Below are positions 18,500-29,735 of a stretch of 64,000 nt of DNA, piece after piece. The notes beneath the pieces were generated by a model. That model had not been told where the DNA came from and made no database searches. It worked only from the letters and a program-made list of their open reading frames with translations. The translations under genes were made by a program, and so were the position numbers. The stretch is from Bacteroidota bacterium. GTDB lineage: Bacteria; Bacteroidota; Bacteroidia; Bacteroidales; VadinHA17. The stretch is taken from NCBI GenBank assembly GCA_025350595.1, contig JANXXP010000202.1, positions 13,393 to 77,392 of the forward strand, read 5' to 3'. Every line of letters begins with the position of its first letter. The stretch's first letter is position 1.

Positions 18500-20446
18500 C
18501 TACCTAAATGGAATTACTGAAGGGGGACCGCTATCAAAATTATTTGGTCTGAGAACCTGTTCTCCTGAAATTGTGAGATTATTGATCTTAGAATAGATCG
18601 GAGGATTGGGAAAGAAGCCAAGCCTTATCTGAAAGGTATTAAAAACCAGATTGTCATTCCTTATCCTTATTCCAAGTCCAATACCAGCAAGGTCTATTCC
18701 GTTTCCATGCGCTTCATTTGTTTCAAAAAGCCAGGATAAATCAGTAAATCCGAAAAAAGCAAATCTGAACCCATATATATTGGCAGGACTGAACAAAACA
18801 GATTCAAGACTCACAATTAATCTCTGTTTGCCATATACTGAATCATTTTTAAAGCCCGAAAATCCGTTGTCACTGACGAATCGAAGGGATTCATCTTTAT
18901 TTCTTTCTAACCCACTCGTAAAATCAAAATTAATAAAGTTGCGTATCCTGTTATTTCCAAGAGATACCAGGTTAGAAAAGTATTTCATATTTAAAGAAAA
19001 AATACCTTGCATTGGTAAGTTTCCGTATAGATAAGTTGCCAATCCTGATGAGAAATAGAAATATCCTAGAGTTTTATTTGATTTTCCAAAAGAATATTCC
19101 GTACCCATGTAAGTCCTTTTCATGTATTTATTAAATTCATTGTACTCACTTCCGTAAGTAACTCTTAATAATCCGCCATAAGGAATATCTTCAGTCCTTC
19201 CATAGGAGTAAATCAGATTTGTCTTGTAGTATTTCTGGACTGAATAAGCAAAAGACCCCAGATACATTCTGTAGTTTGCCAGGTTAAAATACGAATCAGG
19301 TTGAATATTAGGGCGGTCGAATACATTGTTTCTTAAATAACGACCTCCAATAATAATCCTTGTAACTGATTCTTTATCAATAAGAAAAGATCTTGATAGC
19401 CAGTAATCATGAGCGTTGTATTTCAGTGGCTCGGGTACAGCCAGTGTTCCAAGATTGGCCAGAGTTTTAATATGCTTAATTGATATTCCTCCGGCGTATT
19501 TTGTACTTGAACTGACCAGTTTTCTACTCAGATCAATTCCATAAGTTTGATTTTCAAGACCGCTTAAATAATATACATTCACGTTAATAAATGACTTAAT
19601 TAAGTTATTAATTGTATAATGAACTCCCATACCCGGTGAGTCTGAAGAGGTAGCATCATAGGGCATCTCAAAACCCAATTCATGTCCTAATCCTATTATA
19701 TTCTTTTCAAAAAGTGATACTGAGCCCTTTTTCAAACCTTTTAATGTGTATGATCCTCCCAGAGAATAAACATCCTTTGTAAGAACCTGAATATCCGCTT
19801 CATTATCTGAAAGCGGAACTATATTAATCCTCGCATCATCAATAAACGGGAGTTGTCTTAAAATCCTTTCGTTATCACTAAGTAGCAATGGTGAAATTGT
19901 ATCACCTTCATGAAAAAGTAAATTATTCCTTATTATCCTTTCATTAGTATTGAGGTGAGTTTTATTAAAAATATAATCTGCTCTGGTGGCCCCGTTAAAT
20001 GACGGGTTGTTAATGTTTGTTCCGAAAACATTTAGTCTTTCTACATTAATATTTCTTATCCTGATTCCTTTGTATTTTACATTATTAGCATCACTTGTCC
20101 CTATAATCTGTTTTTTAACAGTTGTGTCATGAGCAATAATAACAAAATCGTATAACTTTTTTGTAAAACGGTTTTTGGAAGCTTTTACTTTAAGGGAATC
20201 GAAAAAAATAAGGTTTTTATCCTCTTGAAATATTTTAGGAGCTATCAGACCCGACGATAAATTCTTATGCTCAGAGTTTCCGTATATTGAAATACTGTTG
20301 TGGAAATGAATAAAATATACAGGTAAATTTCTTAAAGTGTCCCTTTCAGAGTTTTTTTGAGGATATACGCTACAACAATAAAACAGAAGTACCGTAAATA
20401 ATTTAGGCTTTAACGAACTTATGTATTTTGTTTGTATTGTAAACAT
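18500..20446 (-). CDS. Putative Omp85/BamA-like outer-membrane protein
   Basis: 648 aa with a signal-like N-terminus (LFTVLLFYCCSVYPQ). It has a POTRA-like segment (FIDDARINIVPLSDNEADIQVLTKDVYSLGG) followed by a long Gly/Tyr/Asn/Phe-rich region with an alternating beta-strand pattern. The family assignment is tentative. Confidence 0.45.
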   Translation of the reverse strand: MFTIQTKYISSLKPKLFTVLLFYCCSVYPQKNSERDTLRNLPVYFIHFHNSISIYGNSEHKNLSSGLIAPKIFQEDKNLIFFDSLKVKASKNRFTKKLYDFVIIAHDTTVKKQIIGTSDANNVKYKGIRIRNINVERLNVFGTNINNPSFNGATRADYIFNKTHLNTNERIIRNNLLFHEGDTISPLLLSDNERILRQLPFIDDARINIVPLSDNEADIQVLTKDVYSLGGSYTLKGLKKGSVSLFEKNIIGLGHELGFEMPYDATSSDSPGMGVHYTINNLIKSFINVNVYYLSGLENQTYGIDLSRKLVSSSTKYAGGISIKHIKTLANLGTLAVPEPLKYNAHDYWLSRSFLIDKESVTRIIIGGRYLRNNVFDRPNIQPDSYFNLANYRMYLGSFAYSVQKYYKTNLIYSYGRTEDIPYGGLLRVTYGSEYNEFNKYMKRTYMGTEYSFGKSNKTLGYFYFSSGLATYLYGNLPMQGIFSLNMKYFSNLVSLGNNRIRNFINFDFTSGLERNKDESLRFVSDNGFSGFKNDSVYGKQRLIVSLESVLFSPANIYGFRFAFFGFTDLSWLFETNEAHGNGIDLAGIGLGIRIRNDNLVFNTFQIRLGFFPNPPIYSKINNLTISGEQVLRPNNFDSGPPSVIPFR

Positions 20447-21156
20447 CAGGTTTTCTGAGGATTACTGATAAGGACGTCGTCTGAATTAAACTGAAATCCA
20501 AGTCTTTTACCCGTGATAACCCTTGAATGCTGGATTTTTGCTTCAGCCTGACCAACTGTTGCAATTTTTACAGTATCGTATGGAGGCACCAGTAGATCAA
20601 ATTCAAGGGCATATTGAATAGCAGAGGAAATAATGAGCTGTAATGACTGGCTGCTTATCTCTTCGCTGCCGTAGTTTGTAAACAACATCCCCATTTGTCT
20701 CTTTCCTTCAACGAAATATTGTTTCTCATGGTTAATAAAGATCCTGGCAATCAGATATCCCAGATCATCCAGTCTGGAGTATTTGAATGAGTCGGCGAGA
20801 TAATTGTAAATATTTATAACTCCGGAGTAGGCATTGTATTTATTCTTCTGGATGTATGCAGTTTTCCATGCCGGATGCTCCCTGTCGAACTGAAAGATAT
20901 TGGAATGCATACTGAAGAGTAAAATATCTCCGGCAACCTTAATCTGCGCATCAAAATTACTTCTGTCGGTGTATTCAAGCCGAATTCGGGAATCTGTACC
21001 TACCAGACTTGTATTTACCTCTTTTGATAAACTTTTGAGTACATCCTTAATTGCACAGAATGCTTCAAGAGTGTTATCGAAAACTTTCTGTTTAAGAACC
21101 GATTTCTCCTTTAGAGTAGTTATTATCTGGAGTTTCTTTTCAATCTGATCTGACAT
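20446..21156 (-). CDS. Hypothetical cytoplasmic protein, translationally coupled to the downstream OMP
   Basis: 236 aa. I recognise no signal peptide or motif. Its TGA overlaps the ATG of the next gene by 1 nt (TGATG at 20446). Confidence 0.5.
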   Translation of the reverse strand: MSDQIEKKLQIITTLKEKSVLKQKVFDNTLEAFCAIKDVLKSLSKEVNTSLVGTDSRIRLEYTDRSNFDAQIKVAGDILLFSMHSNIFQFDREHPAWKTAYIQKNKYNAYSGVINIYNYLADSFKYSRLDDLGYLIARIFINHEKQYFVEGKRQMGMLFTNYGSEEISSQSLQLIISSAIQYALEFDLLVPPYDTVKIATVGQAEAKIQHSRVITGKRLGFQFNSDDVLISNPQKT

Positions 21157-21204: not shown

Positions 21205-22680
21205 TTAATAGGATCTGGCAAACAGAACTCTTCTTTTTGAGGGTTTTCCGGAATAGATGCATACTCCATCCTCTTCAGGAGTGTCAAAGGGAATGCATCT
21301 TATTGTAGCTTTTGTCTCATCTTTTATTTTCTCCTCGGTCTCAACTGTCCCATCCCAATGAGCCATAATAAAGCCGCCCTGATTATCAAGTACTTTCACA
21401 AATTCATCCCATTTGTCAACATAAAAAGTATTCTCCTTTCTGAAAATAAGCGCTTTATTGTAAATATTAGCCTGAATATCATCAAGAAGCTTTGGAATAT
21501 GTTCCTTAATAACATCCAGCGATATTGTTTCTTTGGTCAGAGTATCACGTCGTGCAACTTCAATAGTGTTATTTTCAATATCTCTCGGTCCTATTGCAAG
21601 CCTTACTGGTACGCCTTTCAACTCGTATTCTGCAAATTTCCAGCCGGGTTTATTGGTATCCCTATCGTCGTACTTTACAGATACACCTAATGCTTCCAAT
21701 TCTGATTTGATTTTTTTTGCAGTCTGAGAAATGGTTACAAGTTGCTCATCATTTTTGTAGATTGGAATTATTACAACCTGAATTGGCGCCAGCTTAGGAG
21801 GAAGTACCAGTCCATTGTTATCTGCATGAGCCATAATTATTGCTCCCATAAGCCTTGTAGATGTGCCCCACGATGTTGCCCATACATATTCAAGCTTGCC
21901 TGTTTTGTCGGTAAACTGAACGTCAAATGCTTTAGCAAAGTTTTGTCCGAGGAAATGGCTTGTTCCGGCTTGTAGTGCTTTGCCATCCTGCATAAGAGCT
22001 TCTATGGCATAAGTGTCTAAAGCTCCTGCAAAACGCTCATTTTCACTTTTAGACCCTATAATAACAGGAACAGCCATTGAGTTTTCTGCAAAACCTGCAT
22101 AAACATTTATCATCCTTTCAGCTTCTTCAACTGCTTCTTCACGGGTAGCATGAGCAGTATGACCTTCCTGCCATAGAAATTCAGTTGTCCTTAAGAATAA
22201 CCTGGTGCGCATTTCCCATCGTACTACATTTGCCCACTGGTTTATCAGAATTGGCAGATCTCTGTACGATTTAATCCAGTTCTTGTATGAATGCCAGATA
22301 ATGGTTTCTGAAGTAGGACGTATAATTAGTTCCTCTTCCAATTTAGCTGTCGGATCAACAACAATACCTTTTCCATTCTCGTCTTTTTTAAGACGGTAAT
22401 GTGTAACGACAGCACATTCTTTGGCAAAACCCTCAACATGTGCAGCCTCTTTACTGAAGAAAGATTTTGGTATGAATAAGGGAAAATATGCATTTACATG
22501 TCCAGTAGCTTTGAATAGTCTATCGAGTTCAGCCTGTATTTTTTCCCAGATAGCATAACCATAAGGTTTAATCACCATACATCCTCTCACTGCTGAGTTT
22601 TCAGCCAGATCAGCCTTGATTACCAGATCGTTATACCACTGTGAGTAATTCTCATCCTTGTTAGTTAAAAACTTCGCCAT
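21205..22680 (-). CDS. proS: Prolyl-tRNA synthetase (archaeal/eukaryote-like class II form)
   Basis: 491 aa. [14 protein letters not shown]...[11 protein letters not shown]...FRDE-like class II motifs, and the C-terminus ...VLFARSY typical of this ProRS type. Confidence 0.9.
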
Positions 22681-22782
22681 TTTTTTTGGTATGGTATTTG
22701 TTTAATTAATTTTTAAGAAATAGATTGCGTAAAAATAAATAAAAAGTTCAGTAATTATTCAAAAAAGAAAGAGAGGTTCATC

Positions 22783-23778
22783 ATGAGAGCAAATTACTAC
22801 ATCGGAATTCTATCAGTACTTATGCTTGCAGGTTCTACCGTAAATGCTCAGACAGCTGATATGAGAGGATACAGAAATGATGATGCCAGAATAGTAAATA
22901 ATTATTATTACAATGATTATGATTATTTCTATACTTCACGCATAAACAGATTTCACAGGTCGTATTCAACATTTAATTATTATGCCCCTCTTTTTACTGA
23001 TTCGTACTGGTACAATTACAGACCTTTTTCATGGGGATTAAGCATATATGGAGGTGGTGGTTCAGGCTTAGGATTTTCATATAACTATCCGGTTTACAAC
23101 TATGATTATGGTTATTACGGCGGATATGATCCTTATTTCAATAATTCATTTTATTATGGATACAGCCCTTTTTATTACAACAACTGGTACTCACCTTTGA
23201 TAATAAATATTGGAAACGGAAACAGGTGGCACAATAATTATTATGGAAGGGGTGGATATAATCGTAGTTATTATGACTACGGACATGGTTTCAAAAATTA
23301 TAATAACAATTACAGTAATTCTTCAGAAAGATATTCATCCAGAAGCTATCCGTCACCTGGAAGATCAAATAGCGTTACCGAATCATCTTCCCGCAACATA
23401 TCGAGAAGGGATGGCTCTTCAAATTTCTCTTCACGAAATGAAGTTTCCCGCAATAATTCATCAGATTATATGAACAGAAACATTAATCAGGGTAAAAACA
23501 GGAGAAACACAGATCAGAATGTCAACAGAAGTCAGCGTAGTCTTGATTCAAGGAATGCTGAAAGCAGAGTGAATAACAGTGCTCAAACCGGAAGAGCTGA
23601 ACAGTCGTCAGCATCCGTCAGCAGAAGGTCATCAGTATCTTCAGGTTCTGTTCAATCAAGGTCATATAGTGCTCCTGCCCGAAGCTCTTCATCACGGAGT
23701 GAATCAAAATCATCATCTTCACGCTCATCTACCTCACGTTCTTCCTCTTCAAACGGCAAATCATCAGGGCGAAGATGA
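22783..23778 (+). CDS. Exported low-complexity protein: Tyr/Asn/Gly/Phe-rich block plus Ser/Arg/Asn-rich tail
   Basis: 331 aa with signal peptide ILSVLMLAGSTVNAQ. Tracts include NNYYYNDYDYFY and YNYPVYNYDYGYYGGYDPYFNNSFYYGYSPFYYNNWY. The tail reads ...SRSYSAPARSSSSRSESKSSSSRSSTSRSSSSNGKSSGRR*. A purine-rich GAGAGG lies upstream of the ATG and a terminator hairpin downstream. The single long open frame in low-complexity DNA, with a signal peptide, supports a real gene. Confidence 0.7.
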   Translation: MRANYYIGILSVLMLAGSTVNAQTADMRGYRNDDARIVNNYYYNDYDYFYTSRINRFHRSYSTFNYYAPLFTDSYWYNYRPFSWGLSIYGGGGSGLGFSYNYPVYNYDYGYYGGYDPYFNNSFYYGYSPFYYNNWYSPLIINIGNGNRWHNNYYGRGGYNRSYYDYGHGFKNYNNNYSNSSERYSSRSYPSPGRSNSVTESSSRNISRRDGSSNFSSRNEVSRNNSSDYMNRNINQGKNRRNTDQNVNRSQRSLDSRNAESRVNNSAQTGRAEQSSASVSRRSSVSSGSVQSRSYSAPARSSSSRSESKSSSSRSSTSRSSSSNGKSSGRR

Positions 23779-23780
23779 TA

Positions 23781-23804
23781 AAGGGCCTCTTATGAGGCTT
23801 TTTT
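23781..23804 (+). terminator. Intrinsic terminator after the first low-complexity gene
   Basis: GGGCCTC-TTAT-GAGGCTT followed by TTTTAT, starting 3 nt after the stop. Confidence 0.55.
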
Positions 23805-23920
23805 ATTTCTGTTAACCATTAAAAGATGTTAAAATTACAGAATAAAAAAAAGTAAGTTGATAAATTTGTTTCTTTGGTATAATATTTGCAAGTGAATAGT
23901 AAACATAGGAGGACATAAAA

Positions 23921-25495
23921 ATGAAATCATTATCGTACATATCAATCCTGGTACTTCTGGCCCTCAGCTCCTGTACATCAAGTCTTTATACAGGGGCTGA
24001 ATATGATGACCTCTACTATTTATCTTCAGATAAACCGGTTGTTTCGGCAAAAACATCTGTTAATCAGCAGATTGCATCGAATCCGGCGAAGGCAGGTGAA
24101 TATTATGATAATATTTATTCAGCAGACACACTAATTTCCAGTCAGCTTCCCGACAGTGTTGATTATAGCGACATTATTGATACTGATAATATAGCCAATA
24201 ATAACGGAAGTGGTTATGAGTATGCAGATAACTACTCATACACAGGTCGTTTAAGAAGATTTTATGGTAATTATTTTGACCCTTACTGGAGAGATCCTTT
24301 ATATTCTGATTTTGGTTACAATTCATTTGGATATGGTTATAACAACCTCGGTTATGGCGGATATCCTTATTATGACGGATTTTACAGTCCATACAGTTAT
24401 GGATATGGCATGGGTGGGTACTATGGTATGGGTTATGGAATGGGTTATGGAATGGGTTACGGAATGGGTTATGGTATGGGTGGTTACTATGGTGGCTTTG
24501 GAGGCTATTATGGTGGTTTTGGTTACTCTCCATTCTACGGTTATGGCTATGGAGGCGGATTTGGTGGTGAAGGTCTTCACTCTATAGCTTATGGAAGAAG
24601 AGAAAGGGCCAGCACACTTTCCTCTAACTGGAACAGAAATATTTCTCCTTCTCCATCCGCATCTGCCAGAAGAGATTCTTATTCATCATCTGGTGTAAAT
24701 TCAGGCCTTAACAGAAGAGCAGCTTCAGGCACTCTGCCGGTAGCTTCTGATCAGAGGAGAACTGTTGCTTCAACTGCCAATGGAAGACAGGCGCAAAACA
24801 CCACGTTAAATAAAAATACTCAGGATCCTGGTAAGAATGCAAATGTTCGTAGCAACACATCTACAGTGAGAACTGCTCCAAATGCAAGACCTCAATATAA
24901 CGAGGCTAACAGAAGTTACACTCCAAGCTATAATAGTCCACGGATGAGTACCAGACCTGTTTACAATAACAGCAGATCGTCCGAGGTAGTTAATCCAAAC
25001 ATGAGCAGGAACAGTAATGCTGTTAATAACAACAGGTCATCAGAGACAGTTAATCCTGGTTACAACAGGAACAGCAGTAATGTAAATAACAACAGGGTAA
25101 ATAGTAATCAGGGTTCTGTAAGGACACCTTCTAATCAGGGATATTATCAGAATTCCTCCAATAATCAGAATTATTCTAATACTCAAAGAAGTAATTCTTC
25201 AGCCAGTCCTTCTCCCAGAAGATCTGAATCATATTTTAATAATCAGAGTAATTCGTCCAGAAGTTCTGGAAGCTATTCAGTTCCAAGCAGAAGCAGCGTT
25301 GAAAGAAGCTCCTCAAATTCTTCCGGTTCTGGTTATACCAATTCATCTTCCGGCAGCAGCAGATCTTCTTCATCTTATAGCGGCGGATCAACAGGCGGCG
25401 GATCGTATTCTTCAGGATCTTCATCAGGTTCCTCTTCCAGTGGTTCTTCATCAAGTTCTTCTGGTTCTTCATCCGGCGGATCAGGAAGGAGATAA
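23921..25495 (+). CDS. Low-complexity lipoprotein: Gly/Tyr/Met/Phe block plus long Ser/Asn/Arg/Pro tail
   Basis: 524 aa with lipobox LLALSSC and AGGAGG 9 nt upstream of the ATG. The block reads GYGMGGYYGMGYGMGYGMGYGMGYGMGGYYGGFGGYYGGFGY. The tail carries 20-aa N/S/R repeats and ends ...SSSGSSSGGSGRR*. Confidence 0.7.
   Translation: MKSLSYISILVLLALSSCTSSLYTGAEYDDLYYLSSDKPVVSAKTSVNQQIASNPAKAGEYYDNIYSADTLISSQLPDSVDYSDIIDTDNIANNNGSGYEYADNYSYTGRLRRFYGNYFDPYWRDPLYSDFGYNSFGYGYNNLGYGGYPYYDGFYSPYSYGYGMGGYYGMGYGMGYGMGYGMGYGMGGYYGGFGGYYGGFGYSPFYGYGYGGGFGGEGLHSIAYGRRERASTLSSNWNRNISPSPSASARRDSYSSSGVNSGLNRRAASGTLPVASDQRRTVASTANGRQAQNTTLNKNTQDPGKNANVRSNTSTVRTAPNARPQYNEANRSYTPSYNSPRMSTRPVYNNSRSSEVVNPNMSRNSNAVNNNRSSETVNPGYNRNSSNVNNNRVNSNQGSVRTPSNQGYYQNSSNNQNYSNTQRSNSSASPSPRRSESYFNNQSNSSRSSGSYSVPSRSSVERSSSNSSGSGYTNSSSGSSRSSSSYSGGSTGGGSYSSGSSSGSSSSGSSSSSSGSSSGGSGRR
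24431..24478 (+). repeat. 12-bp tandem repeat x4 (GGTTATGGAATG, encodes GYGM) inside a wider Gly/Tyr tract (about 24398..24570)
   Basis: The units are ggttatggaatg, ggttatggaatg, ggttacggaatg and ggttatggtatg, read directly and in frame. Confidence 0.9.
24961..25140 (+). repeat. 60-bp tandem repeat (2 clear units plus 1 degenerate), encoding a 20-aa N/S/R unit
   Basis: Units ttacaataacagcagatcgtccgaggtagttaatccaaacatgagcaggaacagtaatgc and tgttaataacaacaggtcatcagagacagttaatcctggttacaacaggaacagcagtaa, then a diverged third. The protein reads NNSRSSEVVNPNMSRNSNAV / NNNRSSETVNPGYNRNSSNV / NNNRVNSNQGSV... Confidence 0.8.
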
Positions 25496-25667
25496 TTTTA
25501 AACAATAAAATTCTTATAATAAAGTTCATTCTAAATAAAAGAGTGCAGGGATAGTCTTACTAAAAAAAAATGTCATGAACCGAGCATGTTTAACTAAAAA
25601 TACAAACTTGCATGAACAAAATCAACATGCGAGCTCAATCCGATCTACTAAAAATATTATTATACGG

Positions 25668-27152
25668 ATGAAAAGAATTACATTAATAGTAATAGCATCA
25701 TTTTCAATCCTTTCCGGAGTTATAGCCCAGAACGTTGACGATGCTTTGAGGTATTCTCAGATATTCTATGGTGGTACAGCCCGATTTATGTCGATGGGTG
25801 GAGCATTCACTGCTCTTGGAGGAGATATTTCATCACTGAGCCAAAACCCGGCCGGACTTGGAGTTTTCAGGTCATCGGAAATAACACTTACTCCGCAGTT
25901 ATTTCACGTTAATACAGCGGCTTCATTTAATGGGGTTAACTCAGATTTTCTTTACAATTTTAACCTGAACCAGATTGGAATAGTAAGCAATATTGTTAAA
26001 AACGATAATGAAACCGGACTTATTACACTTAATGTCGGGTATTCTTTCAATAAAACAAATAATCTGAATCAAAGTATCATAATTCAGGGAACCGGCACAA
26101 GCTCAATGGCAGATTACTGGGCGGCGCAAAGCAATGGGATATTAAAAGACAACCTTACCGATGCACAGGGTATGGCGTATGATGCCTGGATAATTGATCC
26201 TACATCCGGGTCAGGCGGACTCACATATGGCACAGTATATTCAAATTATGGCGACAACCCACCTTCAGTATATGGGCAGAACGTGCGACGCATTATTACA
26301 ACTGAAGGTTATACAGGGGAACATGCAATATCTATAGGTGGGAACTATTCAAACAAGATTTTTTTCGGAGCTACTCTTGGTATAGATAAAATCAATTATA
26401 CAAATCATTTCGAACATCTCGAATCGACCGATGCGGTTCTTCTTTCTGAATTTAAAAATTTTACCTACACCGAAAATTATGAAAATAAGGGAACCGGCTA
26501 TACTTTTAAAATGGGTGTAATACTGAAGCCTATTGAATCTTTGCGTATTGGTCTTGCATTCCACTCACCAACATATTACCATATTGATGAAACATTTTAC
26601 GAGAACTTAAACTCAAATTTCACCAATGGCGGTCATCATGAATATTCAATTGACCCGGCAAGATATAATTACGCACTTATGACACCTTTCAGAGCATTGG
26701 CTGGAGTTGCGGTTCAGATTCAGAAGTTTGCGCTGCTGAGCGCTGATTACGAATTTGTCGATTATGGCACAGCAAAATTCAGCCAGACAGGTGATAATTA
26801 TGATTATAGTGCGAAAAATCTGAACATTAAAAATAGTCTTCAGTCAACCGGCAATATTCGTCTGGGCGGAGAATTCAGAATAAACAAATTATACCTTAGA
26901 ACTGGTTATGGTTATTACGGAAAAGCTTTCAAACCGGGTGAAGACAATGCGAATATGAATTATAATTCTATTTCGTTCGGTGCAGGCTTCAGAGAGCAAG
27001 CTTTGTCACTCGACTTCGGTTTCACCACATATAAGTCATCGCAGTTAAGTTATTTGTATCCTTTGCCTGATGGTATGGACCCCGCTGTTGCTAATTTAAG
27101 CACTGTAAAAAACATGTTTACACTTACTTTAGGCTATAAGTTCGGGTACTAG
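25668..27152 (+). CDS. FadL/PorV-like outer-membrane beta-barrel protein
   Basis: Signal peptide MKRITLIVIASFSILSGVIAQ. The N-terminal plug-like motif is DALRYSQIFYGGTARFMSMGGAFTALGGDISSLSQNPAGLG. Alternating beta-strand sequence runs throughout, and the C-terminal beta-signal is FTLTLGYKFGY. I start at the ATG at 25668 rather than the track's 25575, because the extension lacks a signal peptide. Confidence 0.6.
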   Translation: MKRITLIVIASFSILSGVIAQNVDDALRYSQIFYGGTARFMSMGGAFTALGGDISSLSQNPAGLGVFRSSEITLTPQLFHVNTAASFNGVNSDFLYNFNLNQIGIVSNIVKNDNETGLITLNVGYSFNKTNNLNQSIIIQGTGTSSMADYWAAQSNGILKDNLTDAQGMAYDAWIIDPTSGSGGLTYGTVYSNYGDNPPSVYGQNVRRIITTEGYTGEHAISIGGNYSNKIFFGATLGIDKINYTNHFEHLESTDAVLLSEFKNFTYTENYENKGTGYTFKMGVILKPIESLRIGLAFHSPTYYHIDETFYENLNSNFTNGGHHEYSIDPARYNYALMTPFRALAGVAVQIQKFALLSADYEFVDYGTAKFSQTGDNYDYSAKNLNIKNSLQSTGNIRLGGEFRINKLYLRTGYGYYGKAFKPGEDNANMNYNSISFGAGFREQALSLDFGFTTYKSSQLSYLYPLPDGMDPAVANLSTVKNMFTLTLGYKFGY

Positions 27153-27189
27153 AAGTGCAGAGCACATGGCATTGGACAAAAACTTTTGC

Positions 27190-27795
27190 CTAAAGGAAAT
27201 GACCTGCCTCAGGTCCCAGATTGAAAAGGAGATCAACAATACTGAGGCTTGGAACAAAACCATTACCAGGACTAAAGACCTGGTAATATTTTTTATGGAT
27301 AAAATGAGACTTAACCTTTGGTGAGATTGTATAGCGGAAATCATTTTCTTCATTTCCAACAGGTTCAAAATCAGAAGTAGAAGATATTGGTGTTTTGATT
27401 TTTAACATTTTTAGAATGGACTCGGTTAGCTCCATGTTCAGATCAAAAAGAAATTCGTGATTTTTTGAAATTATCTTTTCAATATTCTCAAAATAGAATT
27501 CAAAATATGGTGATGCATTGTACGATGCAGTCATTGCCCTAAGATGAACCTGTTGCCATCGTTTGGAATAATCTATTCGGATATCATTAATTGATGTCTT
27601 GTGCAGACTGCCTAGATAGACTGGCACGGACAATGATTGAGGTCCATGCGCTGAAAGAATATAGCACCGGTTCCTGTAAGTCTGTTTCACATAATTTTCC
27701 TGCTTCTCAATGCAAACTTCATCTGCACGAGAAATAACATAATAATATTCAATTGGTGGTAAGTATGCTGTGGAAACAAGAATTTTCCCTGTCAT
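27190..27795 (-). CDS. WbqC-family protein
   Basis: LPPIEYYYVISRADEVCIEKQENYVKQTYRNRCYILSAHGPQSLSVPV matches the WbqC-like signature (..P..eY......e.y.KQtyrNRc.i...nG...LsvP). The start is either ATG 27795 or GTG 27810; the GTG overlaps the larB stop. Confidence 0.7.
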   Translation of the reverse strand: MTGKILVSTAYLPPIEYYYVISRADEVCIEKQENYVKQTYRNRCYILSAHGPQSLSVPVYLGSLHKTSINDIRIDYSKRWQQVHLRAMTASYNASPYFEFYFENIEKIISKNHEFLFDLNMELTESILKMLKIKTPISSTSDFEPVGNEENDFRYTISPKVKSHFIHKKYYQVFSPGNGFVPSLSIVDLLFNLGPEAGHFL

Positions 27796-27806
27796 TGCAA
27801 AAAGTG

Positions 27807-28556
27807 TCACTCCATCCTGTTTATCATACTCGCAGAAAAACCAGCTCCGAATCCGTTATCAATATTAACAACTGTAACCCCTGTGGAACAACTTGTAAGC
27901 ATTGCTAGAAGAGCTGAAATACCTCCGAAACTTGCTCCGTAACCTACGCTGGTTGGAACCGCAATGACTGGCTTGTCAACAAGTCCACCAACAACACTGG
28001 CAAGGGCTCCTTCCATACCGGCTATAACAACGACTACTCTGCAACTCCTTATATCGGGAAGTTTATCCACCAGCCTGTGAATCCCGGCAACCCCGGCATC
28101 ATAAATTCTTAAAACGTTATTTCCAAGAAGTTCTGCGGTTACAGCTGCTTCTTCTGCAACAGGCATATCAGAAGTACCTGCAGTTATTATTGCAATCCTG
28201 CTTTCAGGAGCTTTTGGTTTTTTCTTTTGAACAGAAATTATCCTTGCCATTGGGTAATAAACAGCTTCAGATATAATACTCTTTACTGCATCAAACATCT
28301 CCTGGTTTGCCCGGGTCCCGATAACATTATTCTCCCTTTCCGACATTACCCTTACAATTTCTTTAACCTGTTCAATAGATTTTCCTGCACAGTATATAAT
28401 TTCCGGGTAACCGGTACGCATTTCTCTGTGATGGTCGATTCTTGCAAAACCAAGGTCGGTATACGGGAAATTTTTAAGTATATCAAGTGCTTTTTCGACG
28501 CTAGTTTCGCCGGTTTTCACATCTTTCAGGAGTTTTTCAACTTCTTTTACATTCAT
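27807..28556 (-). CDS. larB: Nickel-pincer cofactor biosynthesis protein LarB (NaAD carboxylase/hydrolase, PurE-like)
   Basis: 249 aa. The N-terminal part reads FPYTDLGFARIDHHREMRTGYPEIIYCAGKS. The PurE-like half reads IAIITAGTSDMPVAEEAAVTAELLG...AGMEGALASVVGGL. Confidence 0.85.
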   Translation of the reverse strand: MNVKEVEKLLKDVKTGETSVEKALDILKNFPYTDLGFARIDHHREMRTGYPEIIYCAGKSIEQVKEIVRVMSERENNVIGTRANQEMFDAVKSIISEAVYYPMARIISVQKKKPKAPESRIAIITAGTSDMPVAEEAAVTAELLGNNVLRIYDAGVAGIHRLVDKLPDIRSCRVVVVIAGMEGALASVVGGLVDKPVIAVPTSVGYGASFGGISALLAMLTSCSTGVTVVNIDNGFGAGFSASMINRME

Positions 28557-28568
28557 GATTCTTATGTC

Positions 28569-29735
28569 TTAAACCAATTTTGCCATAATATTGTTATATA
28601 CCTCCTTTACCGGAATTCCTTTTTCAATTGCTATTCTTTTGCATTCGTCATATTCCGGTTTGCATGTGACCTCTTCCCCTTTATAATATGATCTTTTAAC
28701 AGAGACTTCACCATAAATAGTATTCAGAGTTTCAAATTTCCTTACAAGAGTGTCCTTTCTGAAAGGGAAAGTTCTTACTCCAAGTGATGTCGATTCAGTA
28801 AATATGATGGTCTTTACTGTTTCAGCCAGTTCTTTCTCGCAGATTATATTAATAACAATACCAGGTCTGCTTTTTTTCATAATAATATTTGAAAGAAAAA
28901 CATCCGATACCCCTGCCTTAGAGAGTCTTTCGGATATATATTCAAAAAACTCAGGATTCATATCATCAATGTTACACTGGAGCAGAAGCGCATCGTGCCC
29001 CGACTCTGATTCAGATATTGCTTCACCTAGAAATACTCTTAGCAGATTCGGAACATCAGGATGCTCTTTCTGTCCGATGCCATATGCAGTTTTTTCAATT
29101 TTAATAGGATAATCGGAGTTGAAATTTGTTCCGAGAGTGGCTAATATTGCTGCTCCAGTTGGTGTTGTTGCTTCGAAGTCAACACCTCCTTTTTTTACAG
29201 GTATTCCTTTAATTATTTCTGCAGTCGCGGGTGCCGGAACAGGAAGTTTCCCATGATCGCACATAACAAAACCACTCCCCAGTTCAACGGTCGATACATG
29301 TACCCTTTCAATATTTAAGGAATTAAAACAGATTGCTGCGCCCACAATATCAATAATGGAGTCAACCGCACCTACTTCATGAAAATGCACATGATCTATA
29401 GAAGTCCCATGTACCAAAGCTTCAGCTGTTGCAATCTTCATAAATATTTCAAGGCTCAGTTGTTTTGTTTTGATATCCAGAGACGAATCATTTACAATCT
29501 TTTCAATATCCGAAAGGTGCCGGTGTGTATGTTCATGTCTTGTCTGCTTAACAGTAACTTTAGTTCCTGTTATTCCATGTCTCTGTTCCTTCTGTACTAT
29601 AAGTTCCCATCCCGCAAGGTTGAGTTTATTTAGTTCATTGATAAGGTATGTTTTGTCTACACCAAGGTCGATCATTGCACCAAGATTCATATCTCCGCTA
29701 ATACCTGAAAAACAATCGTAGCTTAAAATTTTCAT
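28569..29735 (-). CDS. larC: Nickel insertion protein LarC (DUF111)
   Basis: 388 aa. MKILSYDCFSGISGDMNLGAMIDLGV is the typical LarC/DUF111 start. It has a His-rich stretch RHEHTHRH and a conserved HFHEVGAVDSIIDIVG. Confidence 0.85.
   Translation of the reverse strand: MKILSYDCFSGISGDMNLGAMIDLGVDKTYLINELNKLNLAGWELIVQKEQRHGITGTKVTVKQTRHEHTHRHLSDIEKIVNDSSLDIKTKQLSLEIFMKIATAEALVHGTSIDHVHFHEVGAVDSIIDIVGAAICFNSLNIERVHVSTVELGSGFVMCDHGKLPVPAPATAEIIKGIPVKKGGVDFEATTPTGAAILATLGTNFNSDYPIKIEKTAYGIGQKEHPDVPNLLRVFLGEAISESESGHDALLLQCNIDDMNPEFFEYISERLSKAGVSDVFLSNIIMKKSRPGIVINIICEKELAETVKTIIFTESTSLGVRTFPFRKDTLVRKFETLNTIYGEVSVKRSYYKGEEVTCKPEYDECKRIAIEKGIPVKEVYNNIMAKLV

What the first reader, a model, noticed from the sequence alone, without database searches (positions are those of the whole stretch)
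22783..27152. Tandem pair of exported, almost entirely low-complexity proteins (aromatic-Gly/Asn block plus Ser/Arg/Asn tail, both ending GRR) next to a FadL/PorV-like OM barrel
Two same-strand neighbours share an unusual two-part architecture. ORF1 has a signal peptide, then Tyr/Asn/Gly/Phe tracts (YNYPVYNYDYGYYGGYDPYFNNSFYYGYSPFYYNNWY), then a Ser/Arg/Asn tail ending SSSSNGKSSGRR. ORF2 has a lipobox (LLALSSC), a GYGMGYGM.../GGYYGGFGGYYGGFGY block, and a tail of about 300 aa rich in Ser/Asn/Arg/Pro ending SSGGSGRR. Both are preceded by Shine-Dalgarno-like purine runs (GAGAGG, AGGAGG), which are uncommon in Bacteroidota. The next gene on the strand is a FadL/PorV-like beta-barrel. Aromatic-glycine tracts of this kind are hallmarks of gel-, amyloid- or condensate-forming domains such as FUS-type LCDs, silks and cuticle proteins. 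Ser/Arg-rich tails resemble polyanion- or mineral-binding sequences of the silaffin, phosvitin or protamine type. I know of no characterised bacterial envelope system with this layout. It could form a surface or periplasmic matrix, an adhesive, or an eDNA- or mineral-binding layer. Caveat: ORF1 has its own terminator and gaps of 142 and 172 nt separate the genes, so they are neighbours and not a proven operon.
Basis: partly seen in the sequence, partly recalled or inferred. Interest (0 to 1): 0.7.

Follow-up and report, generated by a model that had tools for sequence, protein, structure and literature searches.

The report
Disordered lipoprotein pair beside FadL-type barrel
Two real, conserved genes encode envelope proteins predicted to have no folded structure, and one of them almost always sits just upstream of a FadL-type outer-membrane barrel gene across the Bacteroidota, forming a widespread module of unknown function.

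Summary
ORF1 (22783-23778) and ORF2 (23921-25495) are genuine genes, not spurious frames in repetitive DNA. ORF2 has over 170 homologues and ORF1 about 100.

They are distant paralogues. Both share a Tyr/Arg/Trp/Pro core motif, an aromatic/Gly/Asn block and a cationic Ser/Arg/Asn tail that usually ends in RR. AlphaFold2 with deep alignments predicts both to be fully disordered beyond the signal peptide (mean pLDDT 42.5 and 47.2).

ORF2 belongs to a large Bacteroidota family of at least 1382 clusters at 50% identity. Most members are lipoproteins, and none carries the canonical surface-export signal. A DD[VIL][YF] motif sits at a fixed 10-12 residues from the lipid-anchor Cys.

An ORF3-type FadL/Toluene_X barrel gene follows directly in every related Bacteroidales genome locus examined where downstream DNA is present. 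It also follows in 47 of 56 more distant metagenomic loci, and proS usually lies divergently upstream. ORF1 is a clade-specific, anchorless duplicate.

Flavobacterium johnsoniae has the same gene order (Fjoh_4939/4940/4941). Both proteins are detected there and rise when TamL is depleted. I could not check the Fjoh_4940 sequence.

Most likely this is a housekeeping outer-membrane module with a periplasm-facing disordered accessory lipoprotein. Function is still unknown.

The parts
22770..22777 (+). Shine-Dalgarno-like AGAGAGGT, 5 nt upstream of the ORF1 start codon
   Evidence: Sequence. A GGAGGT-type element of 5 nt or more is conserved in 45 of 51 ORF1 orthologues, against 0 of 70 for proS.
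22783..23778 (+). ORF1: a secreted 331-aa protein with a type I signal peptide and no lipid anchor. It is predicted disordered and is a paralogue of ORF2.
   Evidence: (99 homologues). AF2 gives mean pLDDT 47.2 with no secondary structure beyond the signal peptide.
22783..22848 (+). ORF1 signal peptide (aa 1-22, cleavage after ...TVNA, before Q)
   Evidence: Sequence. The hydrophobic stretch and the A-Q junction are conserved in alignment A2. AF2 predicts a helix at aa 5-18.
22891..23061 (+). ORF1 conserved core (aa 37-93): VNNYY..DYxY(S/T)SRINRFHRSY..F.YY.P.FTD.YWY.Y.P.SWG.SIYGG
   Evidence: Invariant or nearly invariant columns in A2 and A6. The core is shared with the ORF2 family and with distant subfamilies (A3, A7).
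23080..23337 (+). ORF1 aromatic/Asn/Gly block (aa 100-185; 27% Tyr, 20% Asn, 13% Gly)
23338..23775 (+). ORF1 cationic Ser/Arg/Asn tail (aa 186-331, net charge +18) ending SSGRR
   Evidence: The C-terminal (S)SGRR ending is conserved in A2.
23780..23803 (+). Intrinsic-terminator-like hairpin with a T run after ORF1
23907..23913 (+). Shine-Dalgarno-like AGGAGGA, 7 nt upstream of the ORF2 start codon
   Evidence: Orthologues mostly carry a conserved AATAGGGGGAAT purine run at this position.
23921..25495 (+). ORF2: a 524-aa lipoprotein predicted fully disordered. It belongs to a phylum-wide Bacteroidota family.
   Evidence: (171 homologues), and (1382 clusters at 50% identity with E<=1e-3). AF2 gives mean pLDDT 42.5.
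23963..23974 (+). Lipobox L-S-S-C (aa 15-18). Cys18 is invariant.
   Evidence: Invariant C18 in A1 and A5. There are no acidic residues in the six positions after the Cys, so no canonical surface-export signal; this holds for 0 of 204 family lipoproteins.
23987..24040 (+). Anchor-proximal motif YTGAEYDDLYY..SD.PV. The DD[VIL][YF] part lies at a fixed 10-12 residues from the lipid-anchor Cys.
   Evidence: D29, D30 and Y32 are invariant, and Y28 nearly so. The offset is 10-12 residues in 189 of 195 family members.
24101..24139 (+). Motif YYDNIY(A/S)ADTL(V/I)S. It contains invariant D-T and near-invariant L, which matches the Bacteroidota O-glycosylation sequon D(S/T)(A/I/L/V/M/T).
   Evidence: The sequon definition comes from my own knowledge, and glycosylation was not tested.
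24233..24304 (+). Shortened ORF2 version of the family core: YSYTGRLRRFYGNYFDPYWRDPLY
   Evidence: F114 is invariant; Y118, P121, W123 and P126 are invariant or nearly so. It aligns with the ORF1 core in A3.
24326..24586 (+). Gly/Tyr block (aa 136-222; 41% Gly, 28% Tyr). It includes GYGM x5 and is variable in length between homologues.
   Evidence: Eleven of the 15 [GS]Y[GS] motifs fall in this block.
24887..24976 (+). Conserved island in the tail: RP.YN..NR.YTPSY..PRMSTRP.YNNSR (aa 323-352)
   Evidence: Eleven invariant columns in A5 and twelve in A1. Related YTPSYSKPRTS motifs occur in distant subfamilies.
24587..25492 (+). Cationic Ser/Asn/Arg tail (aa 223-524, net charge +25). It ends in a poly-Ser/Gly stretch and GRR.
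   Evidence: Of 80 new full-length family representatives, 34 end in exactly RR and most end in a basic residue.
25668..27152 (+). ORF3: a 494-aa FadL/Toluene_X-family outer-membrane barrel. It has a signal peptide, an N-terminal ..GGAF.ALGGD....QNPAG hatch-like motif and a C-terminal aromatic ...GYKFGY signal.
   Evidence: Pfam PF03349 at 1.3e-9, above the cut-off. The profile hits TbuX (3bry) at 3e-4. The start is fixed by 76 orthologues. Orthologues follow the lipoprotein gene in distant lineages.

Best explanation
This is a conserved Bacteroidota outer-membrane module. It consists of a FadL-family barrel (ORF3) and a cognate outer-membrane lipoprotein (ORF2) that is intrinsically disordered along its whole mature length. 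In this clade there is also a soluble, anchorless periplasmic paralogue (ORF1).

Shown by the data:
- The genes are real.
- ORF1 and ORF2 are paralogues.
- The family is phylum-wide.
- The lipoprotein gene and the barrel gene are adjacent across deep divergence, with short gaps between them.
- The lipoproteins lack the canonical surface-export signal.
- ORF1 and ORF2 are predicted disordered but carry conserved linear motifs.

Inferred:
- ORF2 sits in the inner leaflet of the outer membrane and faces the periplasm.
- Its anchor-proximal motifs dock on the barrel. These are the DD[VIL]YY motif at a fixed 10-12 residues from the lipid anchor, and the Tyr/Arg/Trp/Pro core. The arrangement would resemble the way the FadL-like BamG holds the N-terminus of the lipoprotein BamH.
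- The Tyr/Gly block and the long cationic Ser/Arg tail make multivalent weak contacts with each other, with ORF1, and with anionic envelope material such as peptidoglycan or inner-leaflet lipids.
- The module therefore serves envelope or outer-membrane lipid homeostasis, not adhesion. This fits the rise of the likely F. johnsoniae counterparts when the outer-membrane biogenesis factor TamL is depleted.
For: Real, conserved genes:
- ORF2 has 171 homologues and ORF1 has 99, with conserved motifs at 40-60% identity.

Paralogy:
- ORF1 and ORF2 share a core motif, shown in alignment A3.
- P0212-type lipoproteins combine the ORF2 N-terminal and tail motifs with the ORF1-type core.

Family size:
- 1382 clusters at E<=1e-3 and 635 at E<=1e-10.
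- 54 of 80 new full-length members have a lipobox.

Linkage to the barrel:
- The barrel follows ORF2 in every locus where downstream DNA is available, among 82 loci (79 from the species-representative genome scan plus 3 look-up loci, two pairs being duplicate fetches).
- Three divergent subfamilies with different flanking genes also carry an ORF3 orthologue downstream, at phmmer 1e-51 to 1e-92.
- 47 of 56 metagenomic loci with enough downstream DNA have the barrel there.
- The gap between the two genes has a median of 81 nt in related genomes and 37 nt in distant ones.

Topology and structure:
- 0 of 204 family lipoproteins have a canonical surface-export signal, and the DD motif lies at +10 to +12 in 189 of 195.
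- AF2 predicts disorder for both proteins.

Barrel identity:
- Pfam Toluene_X above the cut-off and a profile hit to TbuX.

Literature:
- F. johnsoniae has proS (Fjoh_4939), an SPII 'periplasm-facing lipoprotein, function unknown' (Fjoh_4940) and a FadL/TodX outer-membrane protein (Fjoh_4941).
- Fjoh_4940 rises 2.6-fold and Fjoh_4941 rises 5.6-fold on TamL depletion. The authors suggest a functional link (PMC12045153).
- FadL-like barrels that bind the N-terminus of a cognate lipoprotein are established in Bacteroidota BAM as BamG-BamH, and the BamG2/BamH2 genes are adjacent (PMC12578637 and PMC12611786).
Against: - No direct evidence shows that ORF2 contacts ORF3. I could not model a complex and did no co-evolution analysis.
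- I could not check Fjoh_4940 by sequence, and a peptide-matching test for Fjoh_4941 was inconclusive. The proteomic support therefore rests on gene order and annotation alone.
- About 16% of the distant loci lack the barrel downstream, so the lipoprotein can exist without an adjacent barrel gene.
- In this window ORF1 has its own terminator, and the ORF2-ORF3 gap of 172 nt is longer than usual.
- Periplasmic orientation is inferred only from the absence of a canonical export signal. Barrel-assisted surface exposure is not excluded.
- FadL-type barrels are plugged by their own N-terminal hatch, which leaves little obvious room for a partner inside.
Confidence: 0.45

Rival explanations
1. Envelope spacer or tether. 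The disordered lipoprotein, together with soluble ORF1, acts mainly as an entropic bristle or electrostatic tie between the outer membrane and the peptidoglycan. It would play an Lpp-, OmpA- or Pal-like role in a phylum that lacks Lpp. The barrel would be only a neighbour or an anchor point, with no link to transport.
For: - The mature chains are long, lipid-anchored and fully disordered.
- The tails are strongly cationic (+18 and +25) and prefer Arg over Lys, 36 Arg against 4-6 Lys.
- No surface-export signal is present.
- The distribution is phylum-wide and looks housekeeping.
- The likely F. johnsoniae counterpart rises under outer-membrane stress.
Against: - No peptidoglycan-binding domain or motif is detected.
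- The C-terminus is Arg, not the Lys that Lpp uses for covalent attachment.
- Strong conservation of adjacency to the barrel and a fixed-offset anchor-proximal motif would not be needed for a simple spacer.
Confidence: 0.2
2. Biogenesis accessory pair. ORF3 and ORF2 would be a BamG/BamH-like or TamL-associated unit that assists outer-membrane protein or lipid assembly, and not a transporter module.
For: - FadL-like BamG with its lipoprotein BamH is part of Bacteroidota BAM, and the paralogous BamG2/BamH2 genes are adjacent.
- Bacteroidota BamA has a disordered Tyr/Gly/Asn-rich loop of similar composition.
- An Omp85/BamA-like gene (18500-20446) is syntenic in this clade.
- The likely F. johnsoniae counterparts respond to TamL depletion.
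Against: - The ORF3 family profile finds no BamG or PorV chain in the PDB at E<=10; it finds only TbuX and a Pseudomonas FadL homologue.
- F. johnsoniae BamG is Fjoh_1412, a different gene from Fjoh_4941. Fjoh_4941 is classed as an OMP in the BAM-depletion proteomics and differs significantly between BamG-depleted and non-depleted samples, which fits a client rather than a subunit.
- BamH is a folded surface lipoprotein with an export signal, unlike ORF2.
- The Omp85-like neighbour is absent from distant loci.
Confidence: 0.1
3. ORF1 and ORF2 would be exported through or alongside the barrel to build a surface gel, amyloid, adhesive, or eDNA- or mineral-binding layer, by analogy with curli or Fap.
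For: - The aromatic/Gly/Asn tracts and the Ser/Arg tails resemble amyloid-, condensate- and polyanion-binding sequences.
- ORF1 is a soluble secreted paralogue with its own strong SD-like site.
- An envelope low-complexity protein, CsgF, is reported to phase-separate at the cell surface (PMC10133297).
Against: - The ancestral form is a lipoprotein without a surface-export signal, in 0 of 204 cases.
- There are no imperfect repeats and no beta-solenoid prediction.
- No CTD or other secretion signal is detected.
- FadL-type barrels are narrow and plugged.
- The family is phylum-wide and lies next to proS, not in variable surface or biofilm loci.
- The likely F. johnsoniae counterpart was found in membrane fractions and classed as periplasm-facing, and it was not found in outer-membrane vesicles.
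Confidence: 0.08
4. Neighbours only. The adjacency of proS, the lipoprotein gene and the barrel gene would be inherited gene order with no functional coupling.
For: - The whole block from the Omp85-like gene to the AIRC gene is syntenic in this clade, including clearly unrelated genes.
- proS is also conserved next door without any obvious functional reason.
- Nine of 56 distant loci lack the barrel.
- ORF1 has its own terminator.
Against: - The pair persists where the other flanking genes differ.
- The genes are on the same strand with gaps of 11-100 nt in most lineages.
- The likely F. johnsoniae counterparts rise together.
Confidence: 0.1

Closest known systems
BamG-BamH (and the paralogous BamG2-BamH2) of the Bacteroidota BAM complex
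   Same: A FadL-family 14-stranded barrel is paired with a cognate lipoprotein whose lipidated N-terminal region is held by the barrel. The paralogous genes are adjacent in B. thetaiotaomicron, and the pair is confined to or typical of Bacteroidota.
   Different: BamH is a folded surface lipoprotein with an acidic export signal. ORF2 is fully disordered and has no such signal. The ORF3 profile does not detect BamG chains. F. johnsoniae BamG (Fjoh_1412) is a different gene from the FadL homologue next to proS (Fjoh_4941).
FadL/TodX/TbuX hydrophobic-compound channels
   Same: ORF3 matches Pfam Toluene_X above the cut-off, and its family profile hits TbuX. It has an N-terminal NPA-containing hatch-like segment and a C-terminal aromatic signal.
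   Different: Canonical FadL proteins work alone. No disordered partner lipoprotein is known for them. The substrate here is unknown. At 494 aa, ORF3 is longer than FadL or TbuX (about 420-450 aa).
Fjoh_4940/Fjoh_4941 of Flavobacterium johnsoniae (noted in the TamL study)
   Same: The gene order is the same: proS, then an SPII lipoprotein with no assigned domain, then a FadL/TodX outer-membrane protein of 55 kDa. The lipoprotein is classed as periplasm-facing, both proteins are detected by mass spectrometry, and both rise on TamL depletion.
   Different: Orthology with ORF2 and ORF3 is inferred from gene order and annotation only. I could not obtain the sequences, and the peptide test was inconclusive. 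No function has been assigned there either.
FUS-type prion-like low-complexity domains, and the CsgF condensate of the curli system
   Same: ORF2 has a high density of [G/S]Y[G/S] motifs (15) together with Arg-rich regions, the Tyr-Arg 'sticker' composition known from FUS-type domains (the FUS rules are from my own knowledge). CsgF is an envelope protein with a low-complexity region reported to phase-separate.
   Different: There is no homology. The proteins here are lipid-anchored or periplasmic and lack RNA-binding or curli context. Phase separation is untested.
Disordered periplasmic linkers of envelope proteins (LpoB, Pal, RcsF, TonB/TolA, BamP linker)
   Same: These are flexible segments that span or probe the periplasm from a membrane anchor. 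The BamP linker even threads into a barrel. The other examples come from my own knowledge.
   Different: Those are linkers attached to folded functional domains. Here the whole mature protein (300-700 aa) is disordered, and only short linear motifs are conserved.

Membership tests
FadL/Toluene_X (OMPP1/FadL/TodX) outer-membrane barrels - ORF3 | Match to Pfam PF03349 above the gathering score | tested here: met
   37.6 bits against a cut-off of 29.7, E=1.3e-9. The family profile hits the TbuX structure 3bry at 3e-4.
FadL/Toluene_X (OMPP1/FadL/TodX) outer-membrane barrels - ORF3 | Signal peptide, N-terminal hatch segment with an NPA motif, and a C-terminal aromatic beta-signal | tested here: met
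   MKRITLIVIASFSILSGVIA followed by Q, QNPAG at aa 59-63, and a C-terminus ending ...GYKFGY. N60, P61 and A62 are invariant in 38 orthologues.
FadL/Toluene_X (OMPP1/FadL/TodX) outer-membrane barrels - ORF3 | 14-stranded barrel with a lateral opening | not testable with these tools
Both prediction jobs were then used on ORF1 and ORF2.
PorV/PorQ (T9SS shuttle) - ORF3 | NCBIfam NF033709 at or above its cut-off of 90 bits | tested here: not met
   22 bits, E=1e-4, covering only the C-terminal 70 residues. No PorV chain is found in the PDB with the family profile.
BamG (FadL-like BAM subunit) - ORF3 | Sequence relationship to the solved BamG chains of B. thetaiotaomicron, P. gingivalis and F. johnsoniae | tested here: not met
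   No hit at E<=10 with the single sequence or with the 38-sequence profile. This assumes the 2026 PDB copy holds 9HJ3, 9HJM and the F. johnsoniae BAM entries, which I did not verify directly.
BamG (FadL-like BAM subunit) - ORF3 | Conserved N-terminal extension of about 10-12 residues relative to FadL | tested here: inconclusive
   My hand alignment of the mature N-termini puts ORF3 about 4 residues longer than E. coli FadL. I used the FadL sequence from memory and had no structure.
Bacterial lipoprotein - ORF2 | Type II signal peptide with a lipobox and invariant Cys | tested here: met
   L-S-S-C at aa 15-18, with C18 invariant in 66 homologues. 54 of 80 distant family members also carry a lipobox.
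Bacteroidota surface-exposed lipoprotein - ORF2 | Lipoprotein export signal, defined as two or more acidic residues within six residues after the Cys (the rule used in PMC12578637) | tested here: not met
   The six residues after the Cys in ORF2 are TSSLYT. 0 of 204 family lipoproteins meet the rule.
Functional amyloid subunits (curli CsgA/B, Fap FapB/C) - ORF1 and ORF2 | Imperfect sequence repeats that form a beta-solenoid, and a dedicated CsgG- or FapF-type channel with accessory genes | tested here: not met
   No Pfam or NCBIfam hit. The only repeat is a short GYGM x5. AF2 predicts no strands. The neighbouring barrel is of FadL type.
T9SS cargo - ORF1 and ORF2 | C-terminal sorting domain (type A or type B CTD) | tested here: not met
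   No CTD family hit in Pfam or NCBIfam. The C-termini are disordered poly-Ser/Arg.
Prion-like / FUS-type low-complexity domain - ORF2 aa 136-222 | Composition dominated by G/S/Y/N/Q with dense [G/S]Y[G/S] motifs, predicted disorder, and demonstrated phase separation or fibril formation | tested here: inconclusive
   The composition and motif criteria are met: 41% Gly, 28% Tyr, and 11 motifs in 87 residues. Disorder is predicted. Material behaviour cannot be tested here.

The most novel reading that the evidence does not exclude
A phylum-wide family of wholly disordered, lipid-anchored envelope proteins forms a Tyr-Arg-driven condensate or gel on the periplasmic face of the outer membrane. In some clades a soluble paralogue joins it. 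The phase would be nucleated at a FadL-type lateral-gate barrel. It would act as a selective layer that hands hydrophobic cargo or lipids between the outer membrane and the rest of the envelope, or that buffers outer-membrane mechanics. This would be a bacterial envelope counterpart of FG-nucleoporin or FUS-like phases.
Probability: 0.12. Interest if true: 0.9.

Novelty: new variant of a known kind. Interest (0 to 1): 0.62.

Why it matters
Pairs of a barrel and a lipoprotein are the organising principle of the Bacteroidota outer membrane. SusCD and BamGH are examples.

This pair would be a widespread and so far unstudied example in which the lipoprotein has no fold at all. That is unusual for bacterial envelope proteins.

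The family is conserved across the phylum. If the F. johnsoniae counterparts are true orthologues, it is also expressed in a genetically tractable organism and responds to TamL depletion. That would make it directly testable and could reveal a new component of outer-membrane lipid or envelope homeostasis in gut, oral and environmental Bacteroidota.

It would also give a clean bacterial system for asking what conserved Tyr/Arg-rich disordered proteins do outside the cytoplasm.

Tried and rejected
- Masked BLASTP of ORF1 against ORF2 found nothing. The paralogy emerged only from family alignments.
- Pfam and NCBIfam gave no hits for ORF1 or ORF2. PDB sequence searches with the core profile also gave none.
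- The PDB search with ORF3 alone returned only chance hits. The PDB search with the Omp85-like neighbour was uninformative.
I therefore have no barrel model and ran no fold search. Fold searches with the low-confidence ORF1 and ORF2 models would be meaningless and were not run.
It worked with the core-only alignment A7.
- The profile search with A3 through the word-indexed database returned mostly fragments.
- Cluster look-ups gave no organism names or informative annotations. One entry was labelled 'YgcG', which is a low-complexity artefact.
- Matching the published Fjoh_4941 peptides to barrel ORFs scored near background, so orthology to F. johnsoniae is still unverified.
- Rfam found nothing in 22400-27400.
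- Sigma-70 promoter matches were no more frequent than in shuffled sequence. This scan does not model Bacteroidota promoters.
- I rejected the spurious-ORF, T9SS cargo, curli/Fap-type amyloid, PorV and BamG readings. The membership tests give the reasons.

Full report
**Observation**

ORF1 (22783-23778, 331 aa) starts with a type I signal peptide that ends in VNA, followed by Q. ORF2 (23921-25495, 524 aa) has the lipobox LSSC at aa 15-18.

ORF3 is listed from 25575, but 76 orthologues start at the MKRITLIV codon at 25668.

Composition is extreme. ORF1 is S21/N13/Y13/R11/G8 (%) and ORF2 is S22/G13/N11/Y11/R7 (%). The Tyr/Gly/Asn blocks are followed by cationic tails with net charges of +18 and +25, and these tails end in GRR.

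The terminator-like hairpin after ORF1 (23780-23803) is found. The purine runs upstream of both starts are present. DNA-level tandem repeats are minor, the largest being GYGM x5. Rfam finds nothing in the region.

**Are the genes real?**

Yes. ORF2 has 171 homologues at E<=1e-3, nearly all 420-520 aa. ORF1 has 99.

Alignments of 17-88 sequences at 35-65% identity show invariant or nearly invariant non-repetitive islands. In ORF2 these are:
- the lipobox Cys;
- YTGAEYDDLYY..SD.PV;
- YYDNIYAADTLVS;
- Y(S/T)GRLRRFYGNYFDPYWRDPFY;
- YGRRER;
- RPEYN..NRTYTPSYSNPRMSTRPSYNNSR;
- YSVPSRRS;
- the terminal SSGRR.

In ORF1 the conserved island is VVNNYY.DYDYYYSSRINRFHRSYAAFDYYSPVFTD.YWY.Y.P.SWG.SIYGG.

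**ORF1 and ORF2 are paralogues**

Masked BLASTP sees no similarity. However, both families share the core ..Y.(S/G)R(I/L).RF(H/Y)..Y...P.(F/Y/W).D.(Y)W..P (alignment A3).

Bridging sequences exist. The P0212-P0219 lipoproteins carry the ORF2-type anchor-proximal YDDVYY motif and the YTPSYSKPRTS tail motif, together with the full ORF1-type core.

**Family size and shape**

A profile of the N-terminal and core region finds 1382 clusters (50% identity) at E<=1e-3 and 635 at E<=1e-10 in 1.84 billion representatives.

Of 80 new full-length members, 54 have a lipobox. Thirty-four end in exactly RR, and most of the rest end in a basic residue. All are rich in S, Y, G, N, R or P.

Subfamilies include 500-720-aa forms. 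There is also a form of about 340 aa in Bacteroidales MAG and metagenome assemblies, in which a His run replaces the Gly/Tyr block and the protein ends GGSIRR. Every source name is 'hypothetical protein', apart from a spurious 'YgcG' label.

No Pfam, NCBIfam or PDB sequence match exists.

**Structure**

AlphaFold2 was run with a 66-sequence alignment for ORF2 and an 88-sequence alignment for ORF1. Mean pLDDT was 42.5 and 47.2. No secondary structure was predicted apart from the signal-peptide helix.

These are intrinsically disordered proteins that carry conserved short linear motifs. They are not featureless low-complexity sequence.

**Linkage to the barrel**

ORF3 matches Pfam Toluene_X (FadL/TodX) above the gathering score. 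Its family profile hits the TbuX structure at 3e-4.

The genome scan returned 79 loci from species-representative genomes, all uncultured Bacteroidales or Bacteroidia MAGs, with one labelled Chloroflexota that is probably a binning error. With three loci fetched earlier by protein look-up, two pairs of which duplicate each other, 82 loci were analysed. The ORF2 homologue is followed by the ORF3 homologue in every locus where downstream DNA is available.

That clade also conserves the whole block from the Omp85-like gene through p236, proS, (ORF1), ORF2 and ORF3 to WbqC and AIRC. Local synteny alone would therefore prove little.

The decisive point is that three divergent subfamilies with different flanking genes still carry an ORF3 orthologue immediately downstream. 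The phmmer scores are 1e-51 to 1e-92.

A metagenome scan with the core motif returned 80 further loci. Of the 56 with enough downstream DNA, 47 have the barrel downstream and most have proS divergently upstream. The gap between the lipoprotein gene and the barrel gene has a median of 81 nt in the related genomes and 37 nt (minimum 11) in the distant set. This is operon-like spacing, and the 172 nt in this window is an outlier.

Nine distant loci lack the barrel. In four termite-gut-type loci (L112, L119, L166, L167) a different lipoprotein of about 480 aa follows instead, and in a fifth (L100) a 407-aa signal-peptide protein follows.

ORF1 is present in 58 and absent from 21 of the 79 related loci where the upstream region is visible. 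The distant loci show a single family gene between proS and the barrel. ORF1 is therefore a clade-specific duplicate that lost the lipid anchor.

**Topology**

None of 204 family lipoproteins has two or more acidic residues in the six positions after the Cys. That is the surface-export rule used for Bacteroidota (PMC12578637).

A DD[VIL][YF] motif lies 10-12 residues from the Cys in 189 of 195 members. A motif held at a fixed distance from a lipid anchor is what one expects for docking onto a membrane-embedded partner.

**Literature**

The gene pair appears once, in passing. In F. johnsoniae, Fjoh_4939 is proline-tRNA ligase. Fjoh_4940 is an SPII 'periplasm-facing lipoprotein, function unknown' with no assigned domain. 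Fjoh_4941 is a FadL/TodX outer-membrane protein of 55.0 kDa.

On TamL depletion Fjoh_4941 rises 5.6-fold and Fjoh_4940 rises 2.6-fold in membranes. The authors suggest a functional link (PMC12045153 and its preprint). Fjoh_4941 is also quantified as an outer-membrane protein in the BAM-depletion proteomics.

I could not obtain the sequences, and a peptide-matching test was inconclusive. Orthology is therefore inferred from gene order, size and annotation. I rate it as likely but not shown.

Two 2025 papers show that the Bacteroidota BAM complex contains a FadL-like barrel, BamG. BamG grips the lipidated N-terminus of the surface lipoprotein BamH. The paralogous BamG2/BamH2 genes are adjacent. 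BamA has a disordered Tyr/Gly/Asn-rich loop of unknown function.

ORF3 is not BamG by sequence, since no BamG chain is found with the profile. F. johnsoniae BamG is Fjoh_1412, which is a different gene.

**Interpretation**

The best-supported reading is a housekeeping outer-membrane module. A FadL-family barrel is paired with a periplasm-facing, lipid-anchored, wholly disordered accessory protein. In this clade a soluble paralogue is present as well.

Docking of the anchor-proximal motifs on the barrel is inferred. So are multivalent contacts of the Tyr/Gly block and the Arg-rich tail with each other or with anionic envelope material. A role in envelope or lipid homeostasis is suggested only by the TamL-depletion response of the likely F. 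johnsoniae counterparts.

They are weighed in their own entries. The exported-matrix reading is the least compatible with four observations: the lipid anchor, the missing export signal, the absence of repeats or beta-structure, and the housekeeping distribution.

**Novelty**

Pairs of a barrel and a lipoprotein are a known kind of system in Bacteroidota, and FadL barrels are well known. A conserved partner that is entirely disordered and has prion-like Tyr/Gly and Arg-rich composition has not been described in anything I could search. I file it as a new variant of a known kind, with function unknown and directly testable in F. johnsoniae.

Noticed in passing
window 22760-22782, and the orthologous positions in L001-L082: The leader of ORF1 is conserved at the DNA level: AAAAAAGAAAGGGAGGTTC, then 3 nt, then ATG. 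A GGAGGT-type match to the anti-Shine-Dalgarno complement occurs in 45 of 51 ORF1 orthologues, against 0 of 70 for proS and 1 of 78 for ORF3. ORF2 orthologues carry a conserved AATAGGGGGAAT run instead. Strong SD sites are rare in Bacteroidota, which hints at special translational control.
   Followed up: partly
window 18500-20446 (-) and 20446-21156 (-): A 648-aa Omp85/BamA-like protein has only a weak NCBIfam BamA match (1.2e-8) and no Pfam hit. Its N-terminus reads ...LLFYCCSVYPQ, which could be a lipobox and might make it TamL-like. A 236-aa protein with no family hit lies next to it. Both are syntenic with proS in all related Bacteroidales loci but absent from distant ones.
   Followed up: partly
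window 24101-24139 (ORF2 aa 61-73): The invariant D-T and near-invariant L within YYDNIYAADTLVS match the Bacteroidota general O-glycosylation sequon D(S/T)(A/I/L/V/M/T). ORF2 also has DSV at aa 78. Periplasmic O-glycosylation of a FadL-like protein (BamG) is reported in F. johnsoniae.
   Followed up: no
window 25496-25667, compared with L004-L082: The spacer between ORF2 and ORF3 is remarkably constant (77-85 nt) in most related genomes. It is 172 nt here and 168-220 nt in five others, which suggests either an insertion or a conserved intergenic element.
   Followed up: no
L112, L119, L166, L167 (termite-gut-type metagenome contigs), and L100, L138, L142, L149: In these lineages the disordered lipoprotein gene is not followed by the FadL-type barrel. 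In four of them (L112, L119, L166, L167) a different lipoprotein of about 480-495 aa follows (N-terminus ...SCKK....L.FS...V.FDTVFT..GS.T..FTV.N.S), and in L100 a 407-aa signal-peptide protein follows.
   Followed up: partly
P0310-P0329; loci L085, L086, L102-L110: A subfamily of about 340 aa from Bacteroidales MAG and metagenome assemblies has a run of 8-10 His (HHHHHHHH) in place of the Gly/Tyr block. It has a Lys/Asn-rich tail ending GGSRGGSRSGGSIRR and is still followed by the barrel. One cluster has 112 member sequences.
   Followed up: partly
window 27190-29735 (-): Downstream on the opposite strand lie a WbqC-like gene, an AIRC-domain gene (LarB-like) and a Ni_insertion-domain gene (LarC-like). 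Related loci also carry a QueC/LarE-like gene. Together these look like a nickel-pincer cofactor (Lar) cluster, followed by DUF362 and multi-ferredoxin genes.
   Followed up: no
L073 (JBLNAO010000259.1): One contig with the full Bacteroidales-type block (Omp85-like gene, p236, proS, ORF2, ORF3, WbqC, AIRC) is deposited under a 'Chloroflexota bacterium' MAG. This is probably a binning error.
   Followed up: no
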